A stretch of 64,000 nucleotides of DNA, from positions 124,001 to 188,000 of the forward strand of contig NW_015174329.1 in NCBI RefSeq assembly GCF_001447785.1, written 5' to 3'. Made by a program: the position numbers and the translations under genes. The notes under the pieces are model-generated. The model made no database searches. It was not told the DNA's origin and saw only the letters and a list, made by a program, of their open reading frames with translations. Shown here piece by piece: positions 2,901-49,935 of this stretch. This DNA is from Gekko japonicus. Lineage: Eukaryota. How positions within the stretch are numbered: the stretch's first letter is position 1; every line of letters begins with the position of its first letter.

Positions 2901-4069
2901 CTCAATTTGGAAAGGTTTTCTCTGATGTGATAACTTTAGAGAGAACCCCTGTAGGGAATAGCATTAATGTCACACATCTTGATTGAGCACTAAAGTTGTC
3001 TATAATTATCTCTGTCTCAGAGTGCCTGTATGTGATCTTTACCACCATGGCAAATATGTGAAATAGTACCATTAGCAGTTTACCACTAATATCAGTCAGC
3101 CTGGCCATGCAAATGCCCTAGGAAGTTTATTAAAATTATGGTCATTATCACTGCTAAGTCAAAGCATCAGAGGAAATCACACAGAGCATTGTTTCCTCTA
3201 TAAGTGTTTTGTCATCTCAATCCCATGAGAGGTTTACAGTTATTTTAGATTCAGACTTTTTAAAAATAAAAAAGCAGTATTGTTATGAAAGCATCACAGA
3301 AATGCTCTGTTCTTTCTATAAAAATGCTGTAAAGGCCAACTGTATCCTTTAGTTAAGGATGGACAGCTGCGAGAAGGAGTGGCTTTGATTGGTGGAAAGG
3401 TACACCAAAGCTATACCCTACATAGCATGGCAGAACAGAGACTGAACTACACAGTCAGGAAGTCCTGGGTTGGACTCTTGCCTTTGCCATGAACTCACTG
3501 GGTGGTCTTACTCGGCCACACTTGCTCAGCCCACCCCCTTTCTATGATACAGGAATAGTAACACTGACCAACCATACAGAGGTGATGGAAGATTACAAGA
3601 TATTAATGAACATGAAGCAATTTAAACACTTGAAAACAACATACATACAGTAAGTTTTATTCTTATTACATTCTTAGGTACCCCCTAAGAAAAGAGCCTT
3701 TAACAACTGGAATAAAAAAGGCCAAAGAGTGTTCGGTCTAGTATGGATATCTAATTGAGTTATGGTGATTTTGCAGATCTGCAAGACCAGTGAAAGGGTG
3801 ACACCCACTAAACATCAGGATTCATTCCTTTTGAGTTATTTCATCTGATTTCCAAAAGGTCATTTCTAATCTATGGGTGTCTGTCATTGCTTCCAGTTAA
3901 TATAACATCTGCAGTCCACAAGCCATTGATTCCACTGCAGTCCCTTCAAATGCCTTCAGATGTTTATGGACTACAAGGCAGCTGAAATGTAGCTTCCCCA
4001 ACACCTACTTAACTATTTTAATTTTTAACATGTGCAGCCCAAACCCCCAAATTAGAAGCTCTACAAATG

Positions 4070-31320: not shown

Positions 31321-31757
31321 TGTTGGAAGTTACAAGTTAGAACACTTCTATTCAGTATTTACTGAGTTAATGCTGTGTTCTGAATCACATGTTTGTTTGT
31401 ATCCTATCTGCTTAGAGAGTTAGAAAGCCCGCCAGATACAGATCTAGTTTGTTGTTCTGATTGGGGAATGGAGTGTTACTATTTAGCATTTTATGGCTCT
31501 TTGTCCCTGAGCAAGAAGAAGCAAGAAGAAGCTCCACTCTCCATTAGACTTTAGCCATGTAAGGAAGTCTCCATTACTCTTCGTTAAGTTTTCTAGATGA
31601 GAGGATGTAGAAATAAAGCTCTTTGTTATTTTACCTCCTGTTTACCCTACCCTTGATAGGTTGTTAGTAAAATTTTTATATTTTGAAACTACCATGGACT
31701 CAGACTCATTTTTACTCTGCTAAAAATTAAGAAATTAAATACTAAACTATCTAACAG
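31321..31757 (+). mobile_element. Copia 3' LTR (element C)
   Basis: Follows PPT TGAGAAGGGG; TG..CA; followed by GTGTG TSD and the resumed element B LTR. Confidence 0.95.
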
Positions 31758-32039
31758 TGTGTCTTTAAAAGTTTGGATGCATGGCTGTATGATAGTCTAG
31801 AGTAGTGGAAACAAGCAAGTGGTGCTTGGCGGTGGGATACGAACATCCTGAGGAAGAAAACACATTATAGAGAACATATATTGAGTGAAATAAAAAGTCT
31901 GGGAGAAGGAAAATTCAGCAATGGCAGTCTGAGGAGACAGACAGCTGAAGTGATATAGTGCTGTTGAGAGCTCTAGGACATCAACACAGTTCTGTAAAAT
32001 ACAGTAGAATTATAGAAAGAAATACAAAAAGACAGAAAA

Positions 32040-33650
32040 ATGGCAGAGTTTCTAGTATTAAAGAAAGAGGCTCTGATCCAAAAGTGTAAAGATTTAAATT
32101 TACCTCATGAAGGAAGAGGTACAGAACAGATGAAGGCTAGTCTGATTCAGAATGCGGTAGATGCTAGCAAACGTGAGAGGGAGAAAATATATAACCCCAG
32201 TCCAGAATATTTAAAGTATCTGAGAGAAAAACATAAAAAGGATCAAGAAAAGAGGAAAGCTGAAGCTGAACTTAAACTTAAAGAATTAGAGTTTAGGTCT
32301 AAAGAGATGGGTCGCATTTTTAAAGCAGAAAGATTACAAATAGAAAGAAGAAGACTTGAACTTGAAGAAAAAAGGAAAGAGAGAAACCCTGATTTCAAAC
32401 ATGAGTTTCCTCAGGTTGAACCAGCAGTCCCAGAAAACAAGCCTCTAGGTATATTGGCAACAAACAAATTTGATACATTTTCAGGGACACAGAGAGAAGA
32501 GGACTCACAGAGTCCTGTCAGGGTTAAAGAGAATTCCCAACTTACTGAAACAGAGAAAAACTTTAGAAGCCAGAGGTCTCAGAAAGAGATGTCAATTGAG
32601 CCTTTTGATGTCTGGATGAAAGACTATTTTGCTAAAGAAATTGCAGCAGAAAAAGCTAGCTATGAAGAATTCTTAAAATATCAATGGGAGAAGAAGGTAA
32701 AGGCCAGAGAGAAAACTGCTGAACTACTCCAGCATCCAGTTGTTGCTGTTATTTCCAGTAGCCCTATCCTAGAACTGAATACAGAAACTAAACCTGAGGT
32801 TATAGTAGAAGTTGAAAAGGAAAAGGAGGAGTCTGAAATTTCTTTGCAAGTACCTGCCAATAAGCAAGCCTCATCAGATCTCAGTATTGCTAGCTCAGAA
32901 GATAATAAACTGTCACAGAATACCTGTCTTCTAGAATCTGGTAGTGAAGAATTAGAAAATGTGTATGTTGAAGAGACTAGTACTGATACCCCTGTAGATA
33001 TAAAAGTGACAGTTGAAGTCAGTGGAGTTGGAACTGAGAATTCCAAGGTAAACCTATCTGATCCTGCTAAAGAGAATCCTGAGAAGCTGCAAAGTGAATC
33101 CATTTTACTGGGAGAAGATGTGGAAGCAAAGGGAAGTAGAGCTCAAATTACAGTGTTAAAGGAAGACATTGCATTGCAGAAGGAGCAAAAAGAAATTGAT
33201 GATGGAGTAACTGAAACAAATGTTAACACTAAAGAAAGAACAACATTATCTGAAGTTTTAATTCCTTGCCAGACTACTGAACCTCTTGTAGGAAAAAGGA
33301 AGGCAGTTTTGCAGAATTGGGAAGTGTTACCAGGAGCAACATACCTGGAACTATGGCAGCTGACAGAGGTCAACCAGCTTGGGAAGCAAGGAGAAGACAC
33401 TTTACATGAACTTTGTATTTTCTTAAGAAATGTTACTTAGAGACTTGCCATGGACAAACGTTTCAGAGTCTTTGCAAAACCAATTGATGTGCACAAAGTA
33501 CCAGACTATGTGACAGTTATCAAGCAGCCAATGGATCTTTCAGCAATTGTTTCTAAAATTGATCTGATTTGTAGCAGTGCTTTGGAGTATAATCCAGACA
33601 GAGACTCTGAACATTGTCTCATCAGAACTAGAAACACACAGATAGTGTAA
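32040..33650 (+). CDS. Gag-like coiled-coil protein fused in frame to a captured ATAD2 bromodomain fragment (one in-frame TAG at 33438-33440)
   Basis: 466-aa ORF continues in frame after TAG as RLAMDKRFRVFAKPIDVHKVPDYVTVIKQPMDLS..ALEYNPDRD. Confidence 0.85.
33231..33630 (+). pseudogene. ATAD2: Processed ATAD2 fragment (pre-bromodomain linker plus bromodomain)
   Basis: KRKAVLQNWEVLP...EDTLHELCIFLRNVT*RLAMDKRFRVF..PDYVTVIKQPMDLS..SKIDL aligns colinearly with recalled vertebrate ATAD2; no introns. Confidence 0.9.
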
Positions 33651-39199: not shown

Positions 39200-40275
39200 T
39201 GAAGGTCCTAGACATGCACCGCCTGCAACACAGCCCGTCCCACCATCATACTCTGATGAAAACGAACGTCTAGGCTAGGGTGTAGTGCTTCACAAACATG
39301 TGAGGAGTAGCCTAGGTCGCCGCATTGCAGATGTCACCAAGTGACGCACCTTGCAGGAAGGCCATGGATGTCACAATTTGTTGGGTGATAGTGAGATATT
39401 GAAAAATTGGTATTTACCAGAGATCAGTTAGTCCAGGAGTGCCAGAGTAAAATAATTCAGACTGAGAGTCCATGTGTGATTAAAATATAAAGTTCTTACT
39501 AAATTCTAGCACGGGAAGGGTAACTGGGATGAAAATAACAACAGAGCATAATCGGCTACATCCTTACTCTACAAAGACAAAACTAGAAGAGAGAGATTAT
39601 GGCTACTCTTCTTCAGAACACCAAACAAAGATGGGAAGAGAAGCCATAAAATGGTAATACACCTTGACACTTTAGTCCCAATCAAATTTCTAGATCAGGG
39701 AGAAAATTCCAGGGCTTTCTACAGCTAAAGAACATTGGAAACATGTGACTTCCTGTAAGTAACATAAACAAACATTTAACCCCAGATATACTGAGTGTTT
39801 TCAACTTGTAAGACCTAACACAATTGCCTGGGTGGAATGTGCTCGTATCGGACCCGGGAGCGGCTTCTTAGCGAGCAGATAGCCAAGTTTGATCGTCTCC
39901 ATGATCCATTTGCAGAGACACTGATAGAATAACTTCTTCCCTTGTGAAGGTAATGCATGAGAGACGAACAGAGCTGGGGTCTTTCTGAAAGGCCGCGTTC
40001 CGTCCAGGTAGAAGAGCAAAGCCCTCTTGACATCTAGGGAGTGAAGACAACGTCCTTCTCTCCATGGCGTTGGAAAGAACACAGGGAGAACAATGTCCGC
40101 TTGGAGATGGAACTCCGAAACTACCTTGGGCAGAAAGGAGACATCTGGGGCCAAGGTAACACCATCATTATGAAACGTCAGGTACAGAGAGTCACACCTG
40201 AGCGCTAACAATTCACTCACACTCCTGGCTGAGGTAATTGCTACCAGGAAGGCAGTCTGCCAGGAGAGGGATCTA
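39200..40275 (-). pseudogene. DIRS tyrosine recombinase remnant, interrupted by a solo LTR
   Basis: SELLAL..FLPKVVSEFH..LHSLDVKRALLFYL..RAHSTQA; continues past the LTR as SMAF..DICNAAT*..FVKHY. Confidence 0.9.
39379..39820 (-). mobile_element. Copia solo LTR
   Basis: TG..CA; 5-bp TSD CAATT; homologous to LTR 24993-25385. Confidence 0.93.
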
Positions 40276-41489
40276 AAGAGTGTGATCAGACAGGAACATC
40301 TGGGAAGCGTCCTGCAGTCGTCGGCAACCCATGCTGCTCCACTATGGAAGCGGAGTTAAAAGATACCAGGGAAAGTCCAGTAGTAAATGGGTTCCGCCGA
40401 CAGGCCATGGACAGACTTTCCCCGTCTGATCATGCAAGCGCGCTCTCGTGCTGTCAGGGTGGTCTGATCAGGCCATTCCGGCTTGGTTCCATTCTCCCCT
40501 CCCTCCCTCAAAGTATGTGCATCATCGCATACTCCATAGGGGACCCTCAATGCTGAGGTGCGATTCCTCACTTATGTGCAAGGGAAACGGCCAAAACCCC
40601 ACAAACGACTTACCTGCAGTTGCATCTGATCACACAGTGACAGGCTGTGCCTGCAGCTACAAAGGGATGTGTGATCACGCAACTGTGTGTCAATTTCCTC
40701 CAGAGGAGACAGCCTCGCTTCCCCTCCGCTCCAACTGGCTCGTGTAACCGCAGCCAAACTGGAGGCCTGTGAAGAAGTGTGTTTGCGTGGGGAGGACAAT
40801 TTGGAAATCCCACCCCACAAATCTCTTCCTTCAGGATTCTATAAACTCACAGGAACACCAGCAAGCTAACGTCTGCTCTCTCATTTGCCTCACAACTGAT
40901 TCAACCGCACTATACGATCCATGCCTCTTGGAACATACCAGACTGCTTTTGCCACCTCCCCCTTTCCTCTGGTTACTTTTTTTTTTTTGCACGCTGGGGA
41001 AGTTCTGCCCCTGTAGAGCACCCTAGCTTGTTTAAAGGTGGCCTTGTTTTGTTGCTTTAGACACTATAAAAGGGGCTAGCCACTGTACTAGCGGTGTCTG
41101 AATGAAGAATGCCAAATCACACAAAGCTTACTTTTAGGTTTTGATTTAAGACTTACTTTATATTTGACCATGTACAAGGCATCTGTTAATCTGCTCATAC
41201 CAGGATGTTCTTTTCCAATCTAAAAATTTAAAATGACAAAAGAGATGTATTAAGAAAGTAGATTCTTGTAACCATGACAGTCACAGCAGATAGCTGGTCA
41301 GCTTGTGCACCCAGATGAACAGTAAAAGTACACAGCTACAGTTTACTTGAATATTTTGATGACATTGCTGGCTTGTGTAGTAGAGGTGCCAAGAGCCAGT
41401 GCTAGGATCCAAAAGGATGCTGGTTCAAATCTCATCTCAGCCAGTTTTGGTGCCAATTCACTAGGTGGTCTTAGACAGGCCATCCAGTA

Positions 41490-41655
41490 GAGTCTTCAAG
41501 GCAAGAGACGAACAGAGGTGGTTTGCCATTGCCTGCTTCTGCAGAGCAATCCCAGGCTTCTTTGGGGGTCTCCCATCCAAATCCTTACCAGGGCTGACTC
41601 TGCTTAGCTTCCAAGATATGATGAGATCAGACTAGCCTGTGCTGTCCAAGTCAGG
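41490..41655 (-). mobile_element. 5S rRNA-derived SINE
   Basis: Reverse complement of gatctc..ttggaagctaagcag..ttggatgggagacc. Confidence 0.7.
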
Positions 41656-41854
41656 ACAGTCCCCTCTGTAGTATATCACCAGCCTACCTTACAAGGATTG
41701 CTGTGATGATGTACCAAGTGCTATTTATATGCTTAGTCTTGTTAGGCATCTTATTTCCCCACAAGTCCCACTTCCTAAACCTGTCCTTGGGATCTTAAAC
41801 AGTGGAAAATGTAACACCTCTCTAAGCAGAAGTGACTACTCCTGCGACTCTTAC

Positions 41855-41950
41855 CTCTAAGAAAACACCGACCACTGCTAAGCCATCTGGAGCCTCCACC
41901 GCCTCTCCAAAAGTTCTATATTTCCTGGCGTTCCAGTGAACTAAGTGGAG
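41855..41950 (-). pseudogene. CA7: Orphan carbonic anhydrase exon (CA7-like, 96 nt) with intact splice sites
   Basis: [32 protein letters not shown]; tcttcaccag acceptor, gtaaga donor; no other CA exon recognised in the window. Confidence 0.85.
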
Positions 41951-42584
41951 CTGGTGAAGAGAGTTATACATCATTACTGTAAATGTTAGCTGACAAGGGC
42001 AAAGCTGATTACGTTCAGTAAGCAATAAAGGCGGCCAACGCTTGGCTTTGCTGAGAACCGTAAAGCTGCCAGACATTCTGGGAAGCTGATGAAGCTCAGG
42101 AAGCCTGCAAACAGCTGTTGCTTTGTTGAATCAATCAGCAAGGATGGTAAACACAAAAGAAAACTCCCGTTTCAGACCCAGGTTCATCAACCCATCATGC
42201 CAGAACTCACCAGGGTTTTAGAACCAAAGCCTTGGATCCATTCTGCAATACAGCAGAATAGCATACAGTACGACGCCACTTCCTATCAAATGGTTTCATT
42301 ATAGCATTCTTTACCTGATGTGCAATTTTTATTGTAAAAGAGCAAAAAAGTACATCTGTCTGTGCTGTTTTTTCGGCCAATGACAGCTGTATATTCTTAG
42401 CTAGCACAGAGGGCCAATCAGTGCTCTCCTACACCAGTTGAGTAACACCTTAGCTTATCCTCCTGGGAGTAGCTCCTCTAACTGTCTTCCACCACTGTCA
42501 TAAAGGAGCAATAACAACAATGCTCAGCTTTGCAGCAGGCTCTCACCTAATGTGCCTTTCACTCAGCTAAAATATCCAACATAA

Positions 42585-42613
42585 GGTTATGGGCCCAGCA
42601 CGCTTCTGCTGCG
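42585..42613 (-). other. Copy of initiator tRNA-Met 5' half (nt 11-39) following an LTR-like end (..TATCCAACA)
   Basis: GGTTATGGGCCCAGCACGCTTCTGCTGCG is 28/29 complementary to vertebrate tRNA-iMet. Confidence 0.85.
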
Positions 42614-42779
42614 TGTTTTATTTGTGAAAATAGAGTTCGGCTACAACTGCCTGCTGATACCTTTCCTGGCACCTGCCAAGTGCTTTTAGAAAGTGGGAGG
42701 GGCTAGGTGGGTATTTGCCCAGCAGGGCATCTGACTGGCTGGGCAGATTAAAAGGCATCCTGTTAACAGAACTTCTGCC

Positions 42780-44792
42780 TGGAACGCCAAAGAGTGAGGA
42801 TTTAAACGAAGGCTTGCGAGACCACGATTTATTCCAGGACTTTCCTCTAGATTGCTTGGAAGTCGCTGTGACTCCCAAATTGCGAGATGTTTTAAGACTT
42901 TTGGCGAGGTCCTGGAGGATGGAATCAGTCGTAGAGCTGAAGAGCCCATCACCCTCAAAGGGAAGATCTTCAGTGATTGACTTAGTGACCTGCTGCAAGG
43001 CTGTGGCACGTAGCCAGGCATGGCGTCATAAAGCAACAGCAGAAGTGAGGGTCTTAGATGCCACATCTAAACTGTGTTTGGCAGCATTAAGCTGATGTTT
43101 GGCCACTAGCATACCTTCCTTTTGTATGCATCTAGCTTGGCGGTTGTAATCCTCAGGGAATTCCTCTGCAAGGAATTCTGACATTTGCTCCCAAAGAGCA
43201 TACTGGTATCTGCCTATACAGGTCATGTAATTAGAAGCTTTGGTGCCCAGTGCTCCAGCAGAATAAAATTTCCTGCCAAACAAGTCCAGCTTCCTGCCTT
43301 CTTTTTCAGATGGGGTGGAGTGGCTGCGTTTCCCCTTTGAAGAGGAGGTGACAATCACCAAATTAGGCTTATGATGAATGAATAAAAATTCAGCTCCCAT
43401 TTATTGAACTTTATACATATGGTCCATCCTCCTGTTGGAGATGGGAACATAGGCGGGGTGTGCCCAGGGGGCTTTAGCGGTTTGTAAAAGGACAGACATC
43501 ATAGGTAGGGCGATCGCAGTTGAAGTGTCCATCTGGACGATGTCGAAGACGGAGTCGGTAATGACGGGTAAAGGTTGGGTAGTCGGAAGTGCCAGTGTGT
43601 TGGTCATTCGTTTAACAAAGTCCCCATAAGACTTAACGTCTTCCAATGGAGATATAGGAAGATCATCCTCCACCTGTTGGGGAAACTGTTCAAGCTGAAC
43701 GGGAACATCCTCATCACCAGAATGGGCGTCCTCAGAAGAGCCAGAGCGCTCTGAAGGATCAGAGAACAGCACCGGGCAAATCGGTGTCGATTGTATCGGT
43801 TCCGACTGGTCCTTGGACTGTGTAGGTATTGATGGCGTAGGTTTGCACGGCTTGTTCATCAGTACCGAGAGTTGTGGTTTTGCAAACTCCAGTGTCGAAG
43901 GAACTTCTCAATATCGAGACAGCCTGGATGAAGTCGACTGTCGATCCCAAACCATGGGTGGTTGTGGGGGAAGCCAGGGGATGCCCCCAGGGAACGGGTA
44001 CACCCCATACAAGTATTGCCACTGACATCAGTCCCAGGAGGGAGGTTGGAGCTCTCTGGGTGATCGATCCCGATCATCAGAGTCCTGCTGGGGTGGGTGA
44101 ACCCTATCCACTCCCTGGTCAGAGTGTAGACTATGAAGACTCGGAAAGTAGGAGATTTGTGTCAGGTCCATATCATGCTCAGAGTCCGTGAGCTGAATGG
44201 GATGTAAGGAGGGTGAAGAAGGTGCACCCAGTAGCTGCCCACGGCCTGAGGAGTCAAGCGAAGCAGCTGCATCTGCTTTCATCCGCGCCATCCGGCGTTT
44301 GGGGTGTCAGAGACTTGGCAGAGGAGCCCTTCTTATGCTTCTTGTGCTTGACAGGCTGATTGTCCTTGCCCACCCGGGTTTTCTTCGCGGGTATATGGGC
44401 TGAGGACTGCAAAGCTGGGATTGGGCGTTTCAGCACCGAGCGATCGGCATCGGGTGGGCTCGGCGTCGGAGACCATTCTGGCATCGACCCCGACACTGGG
44501 GCCAACATAGAGGCGTGTTCCGATGTCTCCTGTGATGACACCATAGGTGAAAGAGCCCGTTCGAGTAGTGCCACATGAAGTCTAGCCGCCCGATTATTCC
44601 TCGTTTGCCAGGAGAATTTGGCACAGTGGGCGCAGGAGTCAATTCAGTGCGATTCCCCAAGGCACAATAATCAAAGGGACTGTCCGTCTGGGGAGGCAAT
44701 CTTACTGCCGTACTTCCAGCACCGCCGAAAGAAACCCCATTTGACCACAGGCCGGAAAAAGGGGGGGTAGAAAAGTCTGCTGAAGCAGACAA
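42780..44792 (-). pseudogene. DIRS ORF1 (gag-like) remnant with stops and frameshifts
   Basis: KEGRKLDLFGRKFYS..., EDLPFEGDGLFS are typical of vertebrate DIRS ORF1. Confidence 0.85.
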
Positions 44793-45164
44793 CGAAGATA
44801 AACATTCTTATCTATCTAAACTACGACTAAAACTAGCTAACTACAAATTTTAGAAAGAGAAAGGAGGCTGAAGTCAAGTCCTTTTTTACCGACTGAGGTG
44901 TAGAAGGTCCTACCAGCGCGGCAGTCAGAAGAGAACTGGCGGGATAGTCGTGTCCCTCCCCTAGTCATGTGCTTTGAGCCTGGCACATGACAGGGGAGCG
45001 AGCGCGAAAATCCCTTTAGCTTTCTACAATACCAATTGGGGTCGGCACAGGCGCACTATATCCCAGGATGGGATGCACAGAGACCACGAGGAAGATAAAC
45101 ATGTTTTAAATGCACTAACATACTATTGCTAACCTTTTACAGAATCCTCATTTTCTGCATTTAT

Positions 45165-47596: not shown

Positions 47597-48422
47597 TCAG
47601 AATAACTTTGGTAGCTGTCTGAGCTGCTGGACATCCAGAAATGTACCTACTGAATTCATATTGTCAGCATGGCTTAAATGATCAAGAATGGGAGTCTGTA
47701 GAGCTTCAGGTACAACTGAAACATCTAGGTTCTCCTTGTCAGGATGCTGTGTAAACTCTGTTTTGCCAGGAAGAAGTTTAGTTTTTGCCTTTAATTCTTT
47801 CAGAAATGGAACTGAACTTTCATTGGATTGCTGCAGGATTCTGAGTGGAAGGACTGCATTTGTAATATGTTTTAACACAAGGCCCTCTGAATTTGACAGA
47901 TGACTGCTAAGCAGCTCGCTTTCACACTGCACTGGATTAGGAGGAAGTTGTCTTTCACTAGCTCTTTCAGATGGATGTTTCCAGTGGGAAAAGTTCTCCA
48001 AGACAGGACTGATACCTAGCTGTAGAACGGGCCCTAAGGCGTCTCCTCTCCTATGGCAGTCAGTCTGCTGCTCCTCTTCATCATCACTACTATCAGTGCT
48101 TTGTAGGAGTCCATACCTCTTCATATACTTCTTGGTTGCAAAAGACATGTTAGTTGGTGATATTAAGTTAAAGCCAACTAAACTCTTGTCTGTATTATTA
48201 TGTAGGAGGGTCTGTAGTGACAAATCCATAGCATTCCTTTGGCTTGAACGACTCAGAGAAAGCTGGGACAGTTGACTTTCATTCAAGTACTTGAGGGCAA
48301 TAGCATTTGCCTCCATACTCAGATCTACTCCATTGGGAGTTAAGCCACTCATACCAACATTAGCAAAAGAGATGTAGTTGAGGCCAGGGACTACTGCTTC
48401 AGGGTTAATGCAGGCCAATATA
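47597..48422 (-). CDS. STIL: STIL last coding exon (STAN domain, C-terminus)
   Basis: DLSMEANAIALKYLNESQLSQLS..NMSFATKKYMKRYGL..LRQLPKLF*; acceptor cttacag. Confidence 0.97.
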
Positions 48423-49935
48423 CTGTAAGAGAACAAAAAAATTATTTAACTTTTTGTATATACCATCTCAGGTGTAATTATTCTGCCTAATCAATCATCA
48501 AGACAAAAAAATTCTGCATACTCTGCATAGTACAGGCTGCTGCTGGCAGCTTTGATCTTCATGAACCACTTCGTAAGTCTTTCCTGGTATAGGATCACAG
48601 GAAGAAATGTAGAGGATGATGTACTGCTACAGGATACACATTATGCTGTGCAAAAGCAGAACAGCCAAAGCAAAGTCATTGCGGCTGTGTTTTTTGGTGC
48701 TGCCACAATCACAGACATGGCAACAGACTGCATGGTTAGTTTGTTGCAAGTTCAAACATTACATTCTTCTCTGTGACCCCACAGAAGAGATGGCATGTAG
48801 AACAGTAGCGCTGACTTACATTTTCCTCCTGATGCTCAGGAGAAAGCAGACATTAGGGGTGTGCATTTGGTTTATCCGAGCCAGAAAAATACCCTGTATT
48901 TTTTAAGTCAAATGCAGATCCAAGATCTGTATTTGGCTACTGGCATAGCTGACCCGTTAAGAAGCCAATTTTTTTGCAGCCTTTATTCAGGTGCATTCAG
49001 CTATCCTGAGAAGGCATGTAAAGATATGTCTTTAAATTTAAAGGGTGTCTTTAAATGCTTTCTCCTCCAAGCTTCACCGCCTTCCGAGTTCACTTGCTGA
49101 ATAGCACCCCCGTGCTTGGAGAAGGCAGTAGGCATCTAAAGAGACTTCTCCTCCAAGCCCTGTGGTGGCAGTGTGACTCAGTGAGTGATTGATTCTCCAT
49201 TATACCCTATGGGGACTGATAGTTCCCATAGGGCATAATAGAACCAAAAATGTTAGGATTTTCTGAAAAAATGCTCAAATCTCAATGCCCTACCATTATT
49301 GGGATTTGGGAATATCAGAAAATACCATTTTTTCAGGTTCAATATACCTTAAACCGAAAAATACCGGGTTTTTCCCCACACCCCTAGCAGACATATGAAT
49401 ATTTTAAATAAACAGTTCTCATCTAAAGTTGAAGCTGGCTGCTAAGTCTGGTCTAATAATATATTACTGAGCTGGATGTGTGTACAGATGTGTGTGTTTA
49501 ATAAATGTACTAGTTATCTGAAAAGTTCTGTAAAATACTACCAATAATTTTATATGCCTTCTGTTCTTTCCTTCTCCTTAACTGTTTTGTAAATTTATCT
49601 TCTTCTCGGCCTTTCTCCACATGGAAGTTGCTCCAACTTTTAATTGCTCTTTTCAGAAATCTTCTCTAGTACTAAAACAACCTTAAGTGGGGGAGGCGGG
49701 AGAACCAGACCTGTACAGAGCTCTGAATGAGGCTAGCAACCACACCTCAGCCTTTTGGACTCTTGAGAACAAACCAAACAGCCTATCAGCCTCTAAATTT
49801 TGCTCGTTTAGTCTAACTACCAAAGCCAACACTATTCATTACGTTTTATCATATTTTACTTTGTAAGCCACTTCAAGGAGGTTGTCTAGAGAGGCAGCGT
49901 AGCAATTTTCTATCAATCAATCCTTTTTCAGTTAC

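What the first reader, a model, noticed from the sequence alone, without database searches (positions are those of the whole stretch)
42380..42613. LTR-like end plus 29-nt tRNA-iMet half copy: probable fossil Copia plus-strand strong-stop cDNA
Seen: ..AATATCCAACA-taa-GGTTATGGGCCCAGCACGCTTCTGCTGCG, complementary to tRNA-iMet nt 39 to 11 with one CpG-type mismatch. No Copia gag follows. Known: copia-type elements prime from a cleaved 39-nt 5' half of tRNA-iMet using a PBS of only ~15 nt; the tRNA is methylated at G9/G10 and m1G blocks RT; Ty1 cDNA is captured at double-strand breaks in yeast. Inference: RT copied the primer up to the modified base and the intermediate was patched into the junction between the CA7 piece and DIRS ORF1. 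That would record both the priming mechanism and how the chimera formed.
Basis: partly seen in the sequence, partly recalled or inferred. Interest (0 to 1): 0.7.

Follow-up and report, generated by a model that had tools for sequence, protein, structure and literature searches.

The report
Copia LTR with copied tRNA tail
This stretch is a second-hand 92-base copy of a jumping-gene end that sits in an intron of a carbonic anhydrase gene with 29 bases of tRNA sequence attached, likely copied from the element's tRNA primer by its own reverse transcriptase, and about twenty similar tRNA-tailed ends elsewhere in the genome would record how these elements start and mis-finish DNA copying.

Summary
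The 29-nt complement of tRNA-iMet nt 39-11 is real, but only 27 nt of LTR precede it (42555-42581), and it lies 180 bp inside the duplicated carbonic anhydrase (CA7) piece, not at the DIRS junction. Window 42555-42646 is an inverted 92-bp copy of the right end of a source element in CA7 intron 2 (contig C14624): a whole Copia LTR + TAA + the tRNA copy, flanked by a 5-bp duplication (TGTTT), the family's duplication length. 42614-42646 is host flank, not leader. The window's CA7 piece may itself be an assembly chimera. Genome-wide, 22 of 40 loci with a 29-nt copy lack internal sequence; 17 restart in their own LTR end, some as 4-6 tandem units; 7 of 15 scored have exact 5-bp duplications (control 0 of 210). 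Best reading: plus-strand strong-stop ends of half-tRNA-primed Copia cDNA, stopped near m2G10/m1G9 and inserted by integrase; not a break patch. Against: full-length members of this family carry a degenerate ~30-nt primer site, and the tail does not end in CA. The scan's earlier notes concern primer sites only, not tailed LTRs.

The parts
42555..42646 (+). 92-bp inverted templated copy of the right junction of the source element (C14624:93715-93624, minus strand, 2.2 kb away in the native locus)
   Evidence: 85 of 92 identical to the source; four of the seven differences are CpG decay in the source
42555..42581 (+). last 27 nt of a Copia LTR (U5 end, ...ATATCCAACA)
   Evidence: matches the end of the family LTR, E 9e-5; family members end at the same CA
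42582..42584 (+). TAA spacer between LTR end and primer site
   Evidence: same 2-3 nt spacer in full-length family members
42585..42613 (+). 29-nt complement of tRNA-iMet nt 39 to 11
   Evidence: 28 of 29 to the genome's tRNA-iMet gene
42614..42618 (+). right copy of the source element's 5-bp target-site duplication, TGTTT
   Evidence: TGTTT also stands directly before the source LTR's TGTTGG start at C14624:94256
42614..42646 (+). host flank from CA7 intron 2, carried along in the 92-bp copy; not a retrotransposon leader
   Evidence: no match to two family leaders (best E 0.16); a relative's contig matches this flank and stops exactly at the tail boundary
42647..42795 (+). fragment of a high-copy MITE-like repeat whose left end (about 35 bp or more) is missing where the 92-bp copy sits; the hAT-like label is recalled, not tested
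   Evidence: 3083 first-look candidates in the genome; other copies extend further left
   Evidence: single-copy apart from the duplicate; no LTR match
   Evidence: Pfam Carb_anhydrase E 3e-8; other exons of the gene lie in order on C14624
40266..42795 (+). 2.53-kb duplicate of C14624:89091-91617 standing in place of about 2.37 kb of a DIRS-like element; real recent copy or assembly chimera
   Evidence: 98.8% overall, 26 mismatches in the first ~440 bp and 1 in the last 2153 bp; gap in four intact relatives measured in three at 2353-2374 bp
42796..45096 (-). DIRS-like retrotransposon, ORF1 side; true right junction of the CA7 piece is 42795/42796
   Evidence: 84-91% to other copies starting at exactly 42796; relatives continue into an RVT_1 domain; inverted terminal arms

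Best explanation
The window holds a later 92-bp copy of the right end of a Copia LTR in CA7 intron 2 that carries a 29-nt tRNA-iMet copy and a 5-bp target duplication, likely a plus-strand strong-stop end that reverse transcriptase likely extended into the half-tRNA primer and that integrase likely inserted. Steps: (1) minus strand primed from the 39-nt 5' half of tRNA-iMet (primer site shown; cleavage known for copia/Ty5, inferred here); (2) plus strand copied the LTR and ran 29 nt into the primer, stopping before m2G10/m1G9 (length shown, cause inferred); (3) the tailed end was inserted with a 5-bp duplication, either as an LTR-only duplex (slightly preferred) or as the right end of a full-length cDNA later reduced to a solo LTR (not separable here); (4) a repair-type template switch copied 92 bp of that junction, inverted, into intron 3 (shown as structure, mechanism inferred); (5) 2.5 kb of the gene was duplicated into a DIRS-like element, in the cell or in the assembly.
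For: Whole LTR from TGTTGG (C14624:94256) to ATCCAACG, then TAA, tRNA copy, TGTTT; TGTTT also precedes the LTR; chance of that 5-mer at one of three boundary positions about 0.35%; family solo LTRs show 5-bp duplications (7 exact, 12 at >=4/5 of 15 rows, two rows being one locus). The tail is the tRNA sequence itself, whereas 9 of the 10 full-length family junctions aligned carry insertions, substitutions or deletion in the first 14 nt. A relative's contigs (one sample, two runs) match the flank and stop exactly at the tail boundary. The class is recurrent: 22 of 40 loci lack internal sequence; 17 of these restart in their own LTR; 7 of 15 scored have exact 5-bp duplications against 0 of 210 cross-pairs; in the largest such family the three leader-bearing members among 30 loci have only a ~15-nt primer site, so the 29-39-nt copies there cannot come from a genomic primer site. 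13 of 25 long copies end at 29-30 nt; human tRNA-iMet carries m1G9 and m2G10 and N1-methylation aborts RT (PMC7293042, passages). tRNA-tailed dead-end plus-strand products are known in Ty1/Ty3 (PMC5371799 section 2.2; PMC2939329 passages).
Against: Full-length members of this very family have a ~30-nt tRNA-like primer site, one of them (L189) 26 of 30 identical, so a 29-nt match is not by itself diagnostic. The tail ends in CG, not CA, and Ty1 integrase in vivo lost activity when the terminal CA was altered (PMC2939329 abstract and passages). Of the five tailed loci that join host DNA directly, only this one shows a 5-bp duplication; two show none and two could not be scored. The empty site was only half seen: no joint to the left flank was reported. 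An m1G9 block predicts 30 nt, not 29, and in many loci the end point falls in microhomology. No tailed LTR has pol upstream (0 of 22) but the background is low (2 of 29 and 3 of 30 LTR loci), so LTR-only versus full-length origin stays open.
Confidence: 0.7

Rival explanations
1. An ordinary full-length element with a regenerated 29-30-nt primer site (like L189) lost its interior and 3' LTR by deletion; the TGTTT match is either the surviving duplication or chance.
For: Full-length members of the family carry a ~30-nt site; 15 of 40 loci with a 29-nt copy have gag or pol downstream.
Against: The deletion would have to start exactly at tRNA nt 11 and end exactly at the 3' LTR's last base with no shared homology; not one base of leader remains; in another family with a ~15-nt site the same tailed class is common.
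Confidence: 0.15
2. The strong-stop DNA was captured by break repair, without integrase, at the intron 2 site; TGTTT on both sides is chance or a fill-in of a staggered break.
For: The tail lacks the CA end integrase prefers (PMC2939329); other tailed loci join without a 5-bp duplication, two of them (L056, L059) with ~100-bp duplications and microhomology; a local template switch lies 2.2 kb away.
Against: The U3 end is precise (TGTTGG) and the duplication has exactly the family's length; PMC2939329 reports that non-integrase insertions in yeast gave 1-3 bp and never 5 bp duplications in 104 events (passage).
Confidence: 0.12
3. One reading: the intermediate was patched into the junction between the CA7 piece and DIRS ORF1 and records how that chimera formed.
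For: Proximity: the tail is 182 bp from the junction.
Against: The junction is at 42795/42796; the tail is present at the native CA7 locus and in two related organisms, so it predates the nearly identical duplicate.
Confidence: 0.02

Closest known systems
Half-tRNA-iMet priming of Drosophila copia and yeast Ty5
   Same: Primer site starts at tRNA nt 39 right after the LTR; 701 exact 14-mers genome-wide against 1 for the reversed control; known for copia and Ty5 (PMC10886601, PMC5371799, passages).
   Different: Here the primer copy is fixed in the genome at an LTR's right end without internal sequence, and runs 29-39 nt.
Dead-end plus-strand strong-stop DNA of Ty1/Ty3 (12-nt tRNA tail)
   Same: LTR plus a tRNA copy longer than the primer site; one such Ty1 end was seen joined into an insertion (PMC2939329, clone MK44; PMC5371799 section 2.2).
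   Different: Those copy the 3' acceptor end of a whole tRNA and were seen in particles or selected clones; here the 5' half is copied, in a vertebrate germ line, with target duplications and with self-restart in U5.
Ty1 cDNA capture at double-strand breaks (recalled; primary papers not read)
   Same: A reverse-transcription intermediate fixed in a chromosome.
   Different: The source has a precise U3 end and a 5-bp duplication, and is not at the junction proposed.
One-ended aberrant retroviral integration with large host duplications (recalled; one search found no paper)
   Same: L056 and L059: precise U3 end, tailed end joined by microhomology with ~100-bp duplication.
   Different: The CA7 element has a normal 5-bp duplication.
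Helenus TRIMs (tRNA-like sequence inside LTRs; PMC10886601, passages)
   Same: tRNA-derived sequence associated with an LTR.
   Different: Helenus has two LTRs, a primer site and a polypurine tract, and its tRNA-like part is not complementary to its primer site; here a single LTR is followed by the antisense 5' half of the primer.

Membership tests
Ty1/copia LTR retrotransposon (source LTR family) | LTR bounded by TGTTG...CAACA | tested here: met
   source TGTTGG...ATCCAACG (window copy keeps CAACA); family members alike
Ty1/copia LTR retrotransposon (source LTR family) | 5-bp target-site duplication | tested here: met
   7 exact and 12 at >=4/5 of 15 solo rows
Ty1/copia LTR retrotransposon (source LTR family) | copia-type pol, integrase before RT (RVT_2) | tested here: met
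   family members L120, L124 have RVT_2; L126 has zinc knuckle, Pol_BBD, then SH3_retrovirus upstream of the RT region; ORFs are broken
Half-tRNA-iMet primed copia (copia/Ty5 type) | primer site complementary to tRNA-iMet from nt 39, adjacent to the LTR | tested here: met
Half-tRNA-iMet primed copia (copia/Ty5 type) | a cleaved 39-nt tRNA covalently joined to minus-strand DNA | not testable with these tools
   needs particles or primer sequencing
Integrated plus-strand strong-stop end | whole LTR from the U3 start, then primer copy, no leader | tested here: met
   (for the source element; the window holds only its last 27 nt)
Integrated plus-strand strong-stop end | tail longer than, or different from, the family's genomic primer site | tested here: inconclusive
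   family site is also ~30 nt but mostly degenerate; one member is 26 of 30. Met in another family with a ~15-nt site
Integrated plus-strand strong-stop end | stop at an RT-blocking modified base | tested here: inconclusive
   13 of 25 end at 29-30 nt; modification known for human tRNA-iMet only (PMC7293042); many ends lie in microhomology
cDNA patch at the CA7/DIRS junction | insert lies at the junction and is absent from the donor locus | tested here: not met
Ordinary truncated full-length element | family leader follows the primer site | tested here: not met
   42614-42795 has no significant match to two family leaders
TRIM / Helenus | two LTRs with primer site and polypurine tract between them | tested here: not met
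   single LTR; only a 92-bp inverted partial copy nearby

The most novel reading that the evidence does not exclude
Vertebrate half-tRNA-primed Copia elements leave a genome-wide fossil class of failed plus-strand transfers: the strong-stop strand copies the primer to G10/G9, jumps back into its own U5 at tRNA-like boxes (a U5 motif complementary to tRNA nt 1-7 sits in 9 of 25 LTR groups), sometimes iterates 4-6 times, and is integrated as an LTR-[tRNA-U5]n unit with a normal 5-bp duplication; the CA7 element is a directly joined member. The U5 box would act as a surrogate acceptor-stem strand for the half tRNA.
Probability: 0.4. Interest if true: 0.7.

Novelty: new variant of a known kind. 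Interest (0 to 1): 0.5.

Why it matters
How copia/Ty5-type elements finish plus-strand transfer with a half-tRNA primer has been studied mainly in fly and yeast particles. Fixed, target-duplicated, tRNA-tailed LTR ends in a vertebrate genome would give a countable in vivo record of where RT stops on the primer, which U5 and leader boxes it re-anneals to, and how long primer sites get regenerated in full-length elements. For the window itself the result is sobering: the feature is a copy of a copy and says nothing about the CA7-DIRS chimera, which may be an assembly error.

Tried and rejected
Inversion between the two inverted 92-bp copies: rejected, CA7 exon 3 lies between them in the gene's orientation. 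DIRS homology at the left junction of the CA7 piece: rejected, C14624:88000-90500 does not match four DIRS copies; the piece begins in an unrelated high-copy repeat. The young Copia in the window (26.3-31.8 kb) as donor: rejected, different LTR and no such primer site. First automatic TSD count misplaced LTR ends and was redone with explicit spacers; only one search is used. Empty-site test: organism D gave no cover of the flank, organism E covered one side only; lack of cover is not used as evidence. Tailed 3' LTRs of full-length elements: none among 22, background too low to conclude. The primary papers on Ty5 priming (PMC1369817) and Ty plus-strand transfer (PMC1170264) are not held and were not read. 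Ten literature searches returned no description of tRNA-tailed solo LTRs or LTR-[tRNA-U5]n arrays in genomes; the library lacks most subscription journals, and Repbase notes were not searchable. No supplements were read. Two look-ups of earlier scan notes gave only primer-site notes from other genomes.

Full report
Observation. Window 42585-42613 is the reverse complement of nt 39-11 of the genome's own tRNA-iMet gene (L069, called by ARAGORN) with one CpG-type mismatch; the chance expectation in the window is about 4e-11. It follows ATATCCAACA and a TAA spacer. No gag or pol follows. Only 42555-42581 is LTR: it matches the end of the family LTR (E 9e-5), while 42130-42554 does not (best E 0.29).

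Where it really comes from. Window 40266-42795 is a 98.8% duplicate of C14624:89091-91617. C14624 holds the carbonic anhydrase exons in order on the minus strand (Pfam Carb_anhydrase for the window exon; the name CA7 and the exon numbers are recalled), so it is the native locus. DIRS-like homology stops at 40269 and resumes at exactly 42796. The tRNA copy therefore lies 182 bp inside the duplicated piece and not at the junction. At the native locus a second, inverted copy of 42555-42646 lies 2.2 kb away (C14624:93624-93715, 85 of 92 identical). That copy continues into a whole LTR, from TGTTGG at 94256, with a SINE-like insert inside. Its layout is TGTTT | LTR | TAA | 29-nt tRNA copy | TGTTT. 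Exon 3 lies between the two copies in normal orientation, so this is a templated insertion and not an inversion. The 92-bp copy stands where the left end of a high-copy MITE-like repeat is missing.

The family. The LTR belongs to a Copia family (47 matches among 40 scored of 204 candidates; RVT_2, Pol_BBD and SH3_retrovirus in members). Solo LTRs have 5-bp duplications: 7 exact and 12 at 4 of 5 or better among 15 rows, two rows being the same locus. Full-length members carry a degenerate ~30-nt primer site, most with insertions or substitutions in the first 14 nt, one (L189) 26 of 30 identical to the tRNA, each followed by the family leader. 42614-42795 does not match that leader.

Relatives. 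Contigs of organisms B and C carry both the LTR insertion and the 92-bp copy (X5 pieces 1161-1498 and 3577-3872; X3 pieces 1123-1454 and 4166-4466 of L079), so both are old. Contigs of organism E (one sample, two runs) match the flank at L079:3578-3656 and stop exactly where the tail begins, running on for 1086 and 547 unlike letters; no joint to the left flank was reported. This shows that 42614-42646 is host DNA and fixes the boundary at tRNA nt 11, but only half shows the empty site.

A recurrent class. The 14-nt core site occurs 701 times (reversed control 1); in 39 sampled sites the tRNA match is 14-16 nt in 27 and 24 nt or more in 8. A CpG-tolerant 29-mer gives 54 hits (control 0): 8 in tRNA genes or their copies and 46 in 40 other loci. 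Of the 40, 15 have gag or pol downstream, 1 has a family leader only, 2 are the 92-bp copies and 22 have no internal sequence. In 17 of the 22, read by eye, the tRNA copy is followed by a repeat of the element's own LTR end; L039 and L147 have 4 units and L137 has 6, each unit with its own CpG decay pattern. Of 15 such loci whose LTR start could be placed (three from outside the 54-hit set), 7 have an exact 5-bp duplication and 10 match at 4 of 5 or better; cross-pair controls give 0 and 4 of 210. In the largest of these families the three leader-bearing members among 30 loci have only a ~15-nt primer site, so the long copies there come from the tRNA and not from a genomic site. Two further loci (L056, L059) join host DNA through microhomology with ~100-bp duplications. 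In gag-bearing families, single members have the short site replaced by a 30-nt tRNA copy that rejoins the leader at a TGCGC box (L075 against L161, L175, L179; L066 against L181). Among 25 non-tRNA loci of the 30 fetched for the 21-mer, 13 end at 29-30 nt, 6 are shorter and 6 longer.

Mechanism. Half-tRNA-iMet priming is known for copia and Ty5 (PMC10886601 and PMC5371799, passages). In Ty1 and Ty3 the first plus strand copies 12 nt of primer and accumulates as a dead-end product (PMC5371799 section 2.2; PMC2939329 passages). Human tRNA-iMet carries m1G9 and m2G10, and N1-methylation aborts RT (PMC7293042 passages); the modification is assumed for this organism. I infer that plus-strand synthesis ran 29-30 nt into the half tRNA and that the tailed end was inserted by integrase, mostly after re-annealing in U5 had restored a CA end, and at CA7 directly. 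The chance of TGTTT at one of three boundary positions is about 0.35%. Against this: the CA7 tail ends in CG, Ty1 integrase needed the terminal CA in vivo (PMC2939329), only 1 of the 3 scorable directly joined loci in the 54-hit set has a 5-bp duplication, and the family's own primer site is long. Whether the inserted molecule was LTR-only or full-length and later collapsed is open: 0 of 22 tailed LTRs have pol upstream, against 2 of 29 and 3 of 30 LTR loci in two family samples; by hand that is p about 0.13.

The window copy may be an artefact. The CA7 piece replaces 2353-2374 bp of DIRS interior with about 2526 bp; it begins in a high-copy repeat (6854 candidates), has 26 mismatches in its first ~440 bp and 1 in the last 2153 bp, and the adjoining 485 bp are 100% identical to another DIRS copy while the rest is about 88%. 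This mosaic fits a gap-filling chimera at least as well as a real recent copy; I did not lay reads on these junctions. The native copies are real.

Novelty. The ingredients are known; ten searches found no account of fixed tRNA-tailed LTRs or LTR-[tRNA-U5]n arrays, in a library that lacks most subscription journals; PMC4139406 (passages) only confirms long internal-tRNA primer sites in Candida. A U5 motif complementary to tRNA nt 1-7 is present in 40 of 82 LTR ends against 7 and 0 in control windows, or 9 of 25 sequence groups against 1 and 0; its role is untested.

Noticed in passing
L039 (C8496), L137 (C9614), L147 (C16761): Copia LTR followed by 4, 6 and 4 tandem units of [29-nt tRNA-iMet copy + U5 end]; L039 and L137 are flanked by exact 5-bp duplications, and units decayed independently at CpG.
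   Followed up: partly
last 70 nt of LTRs: U5 motif complementary to tRNA-iMet nt 1-7 in 40 of 82 LTR ends (9 of 25 groups), identical to the tRNA's own 3' acceptor strand; could replace it when pairing with the half tRNA.
   Followed up: partly
L075, L066, L189, L048: Full-length or leader-bearing elements whose primer site was overwritten by a ~30-nt tRNA copy rejoining the leader at a short box; suggests primer sequence is sometimes inherited in these families.
   Followed up: partly
L056, L059: tRNA-tailed LTRs with a precise U3 end and ~100-bp host duplication joined by microhomology (93% and 78% between copies).
   Followed up: partly
L188 (C2265:498378-498487): Four tandem 32-bp units of LTR end plus 16-nt primer site in a gag-bearing element.
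   Followed up: no
window 26.3-31.8 kb: Young Copia with near-identical LTRs and an open pol (RVT_2, rve); its 5' LTR is followed by a repeat of its own last 9 nt and no recognisable primer site.
   Followed up: no
window 39785-40700: 485 bp identical to another DIRS copy next to a 94%-identical repeat copy that converges on the CA7 sequence: signs of an assembly gap-fill chimera.
   Followed up: partly
window 47597-48445 (-): Long open frame that looks like the last exon of STIL (recalled, not searched).
   Followed up: no
window 32016-33440 (+), between repeats at 31757 and 34000: 474-aa open frame resembling a degenerate gag of another LTR element, into whose left repeat the Copia appears to have inserted.
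   Followed up: no
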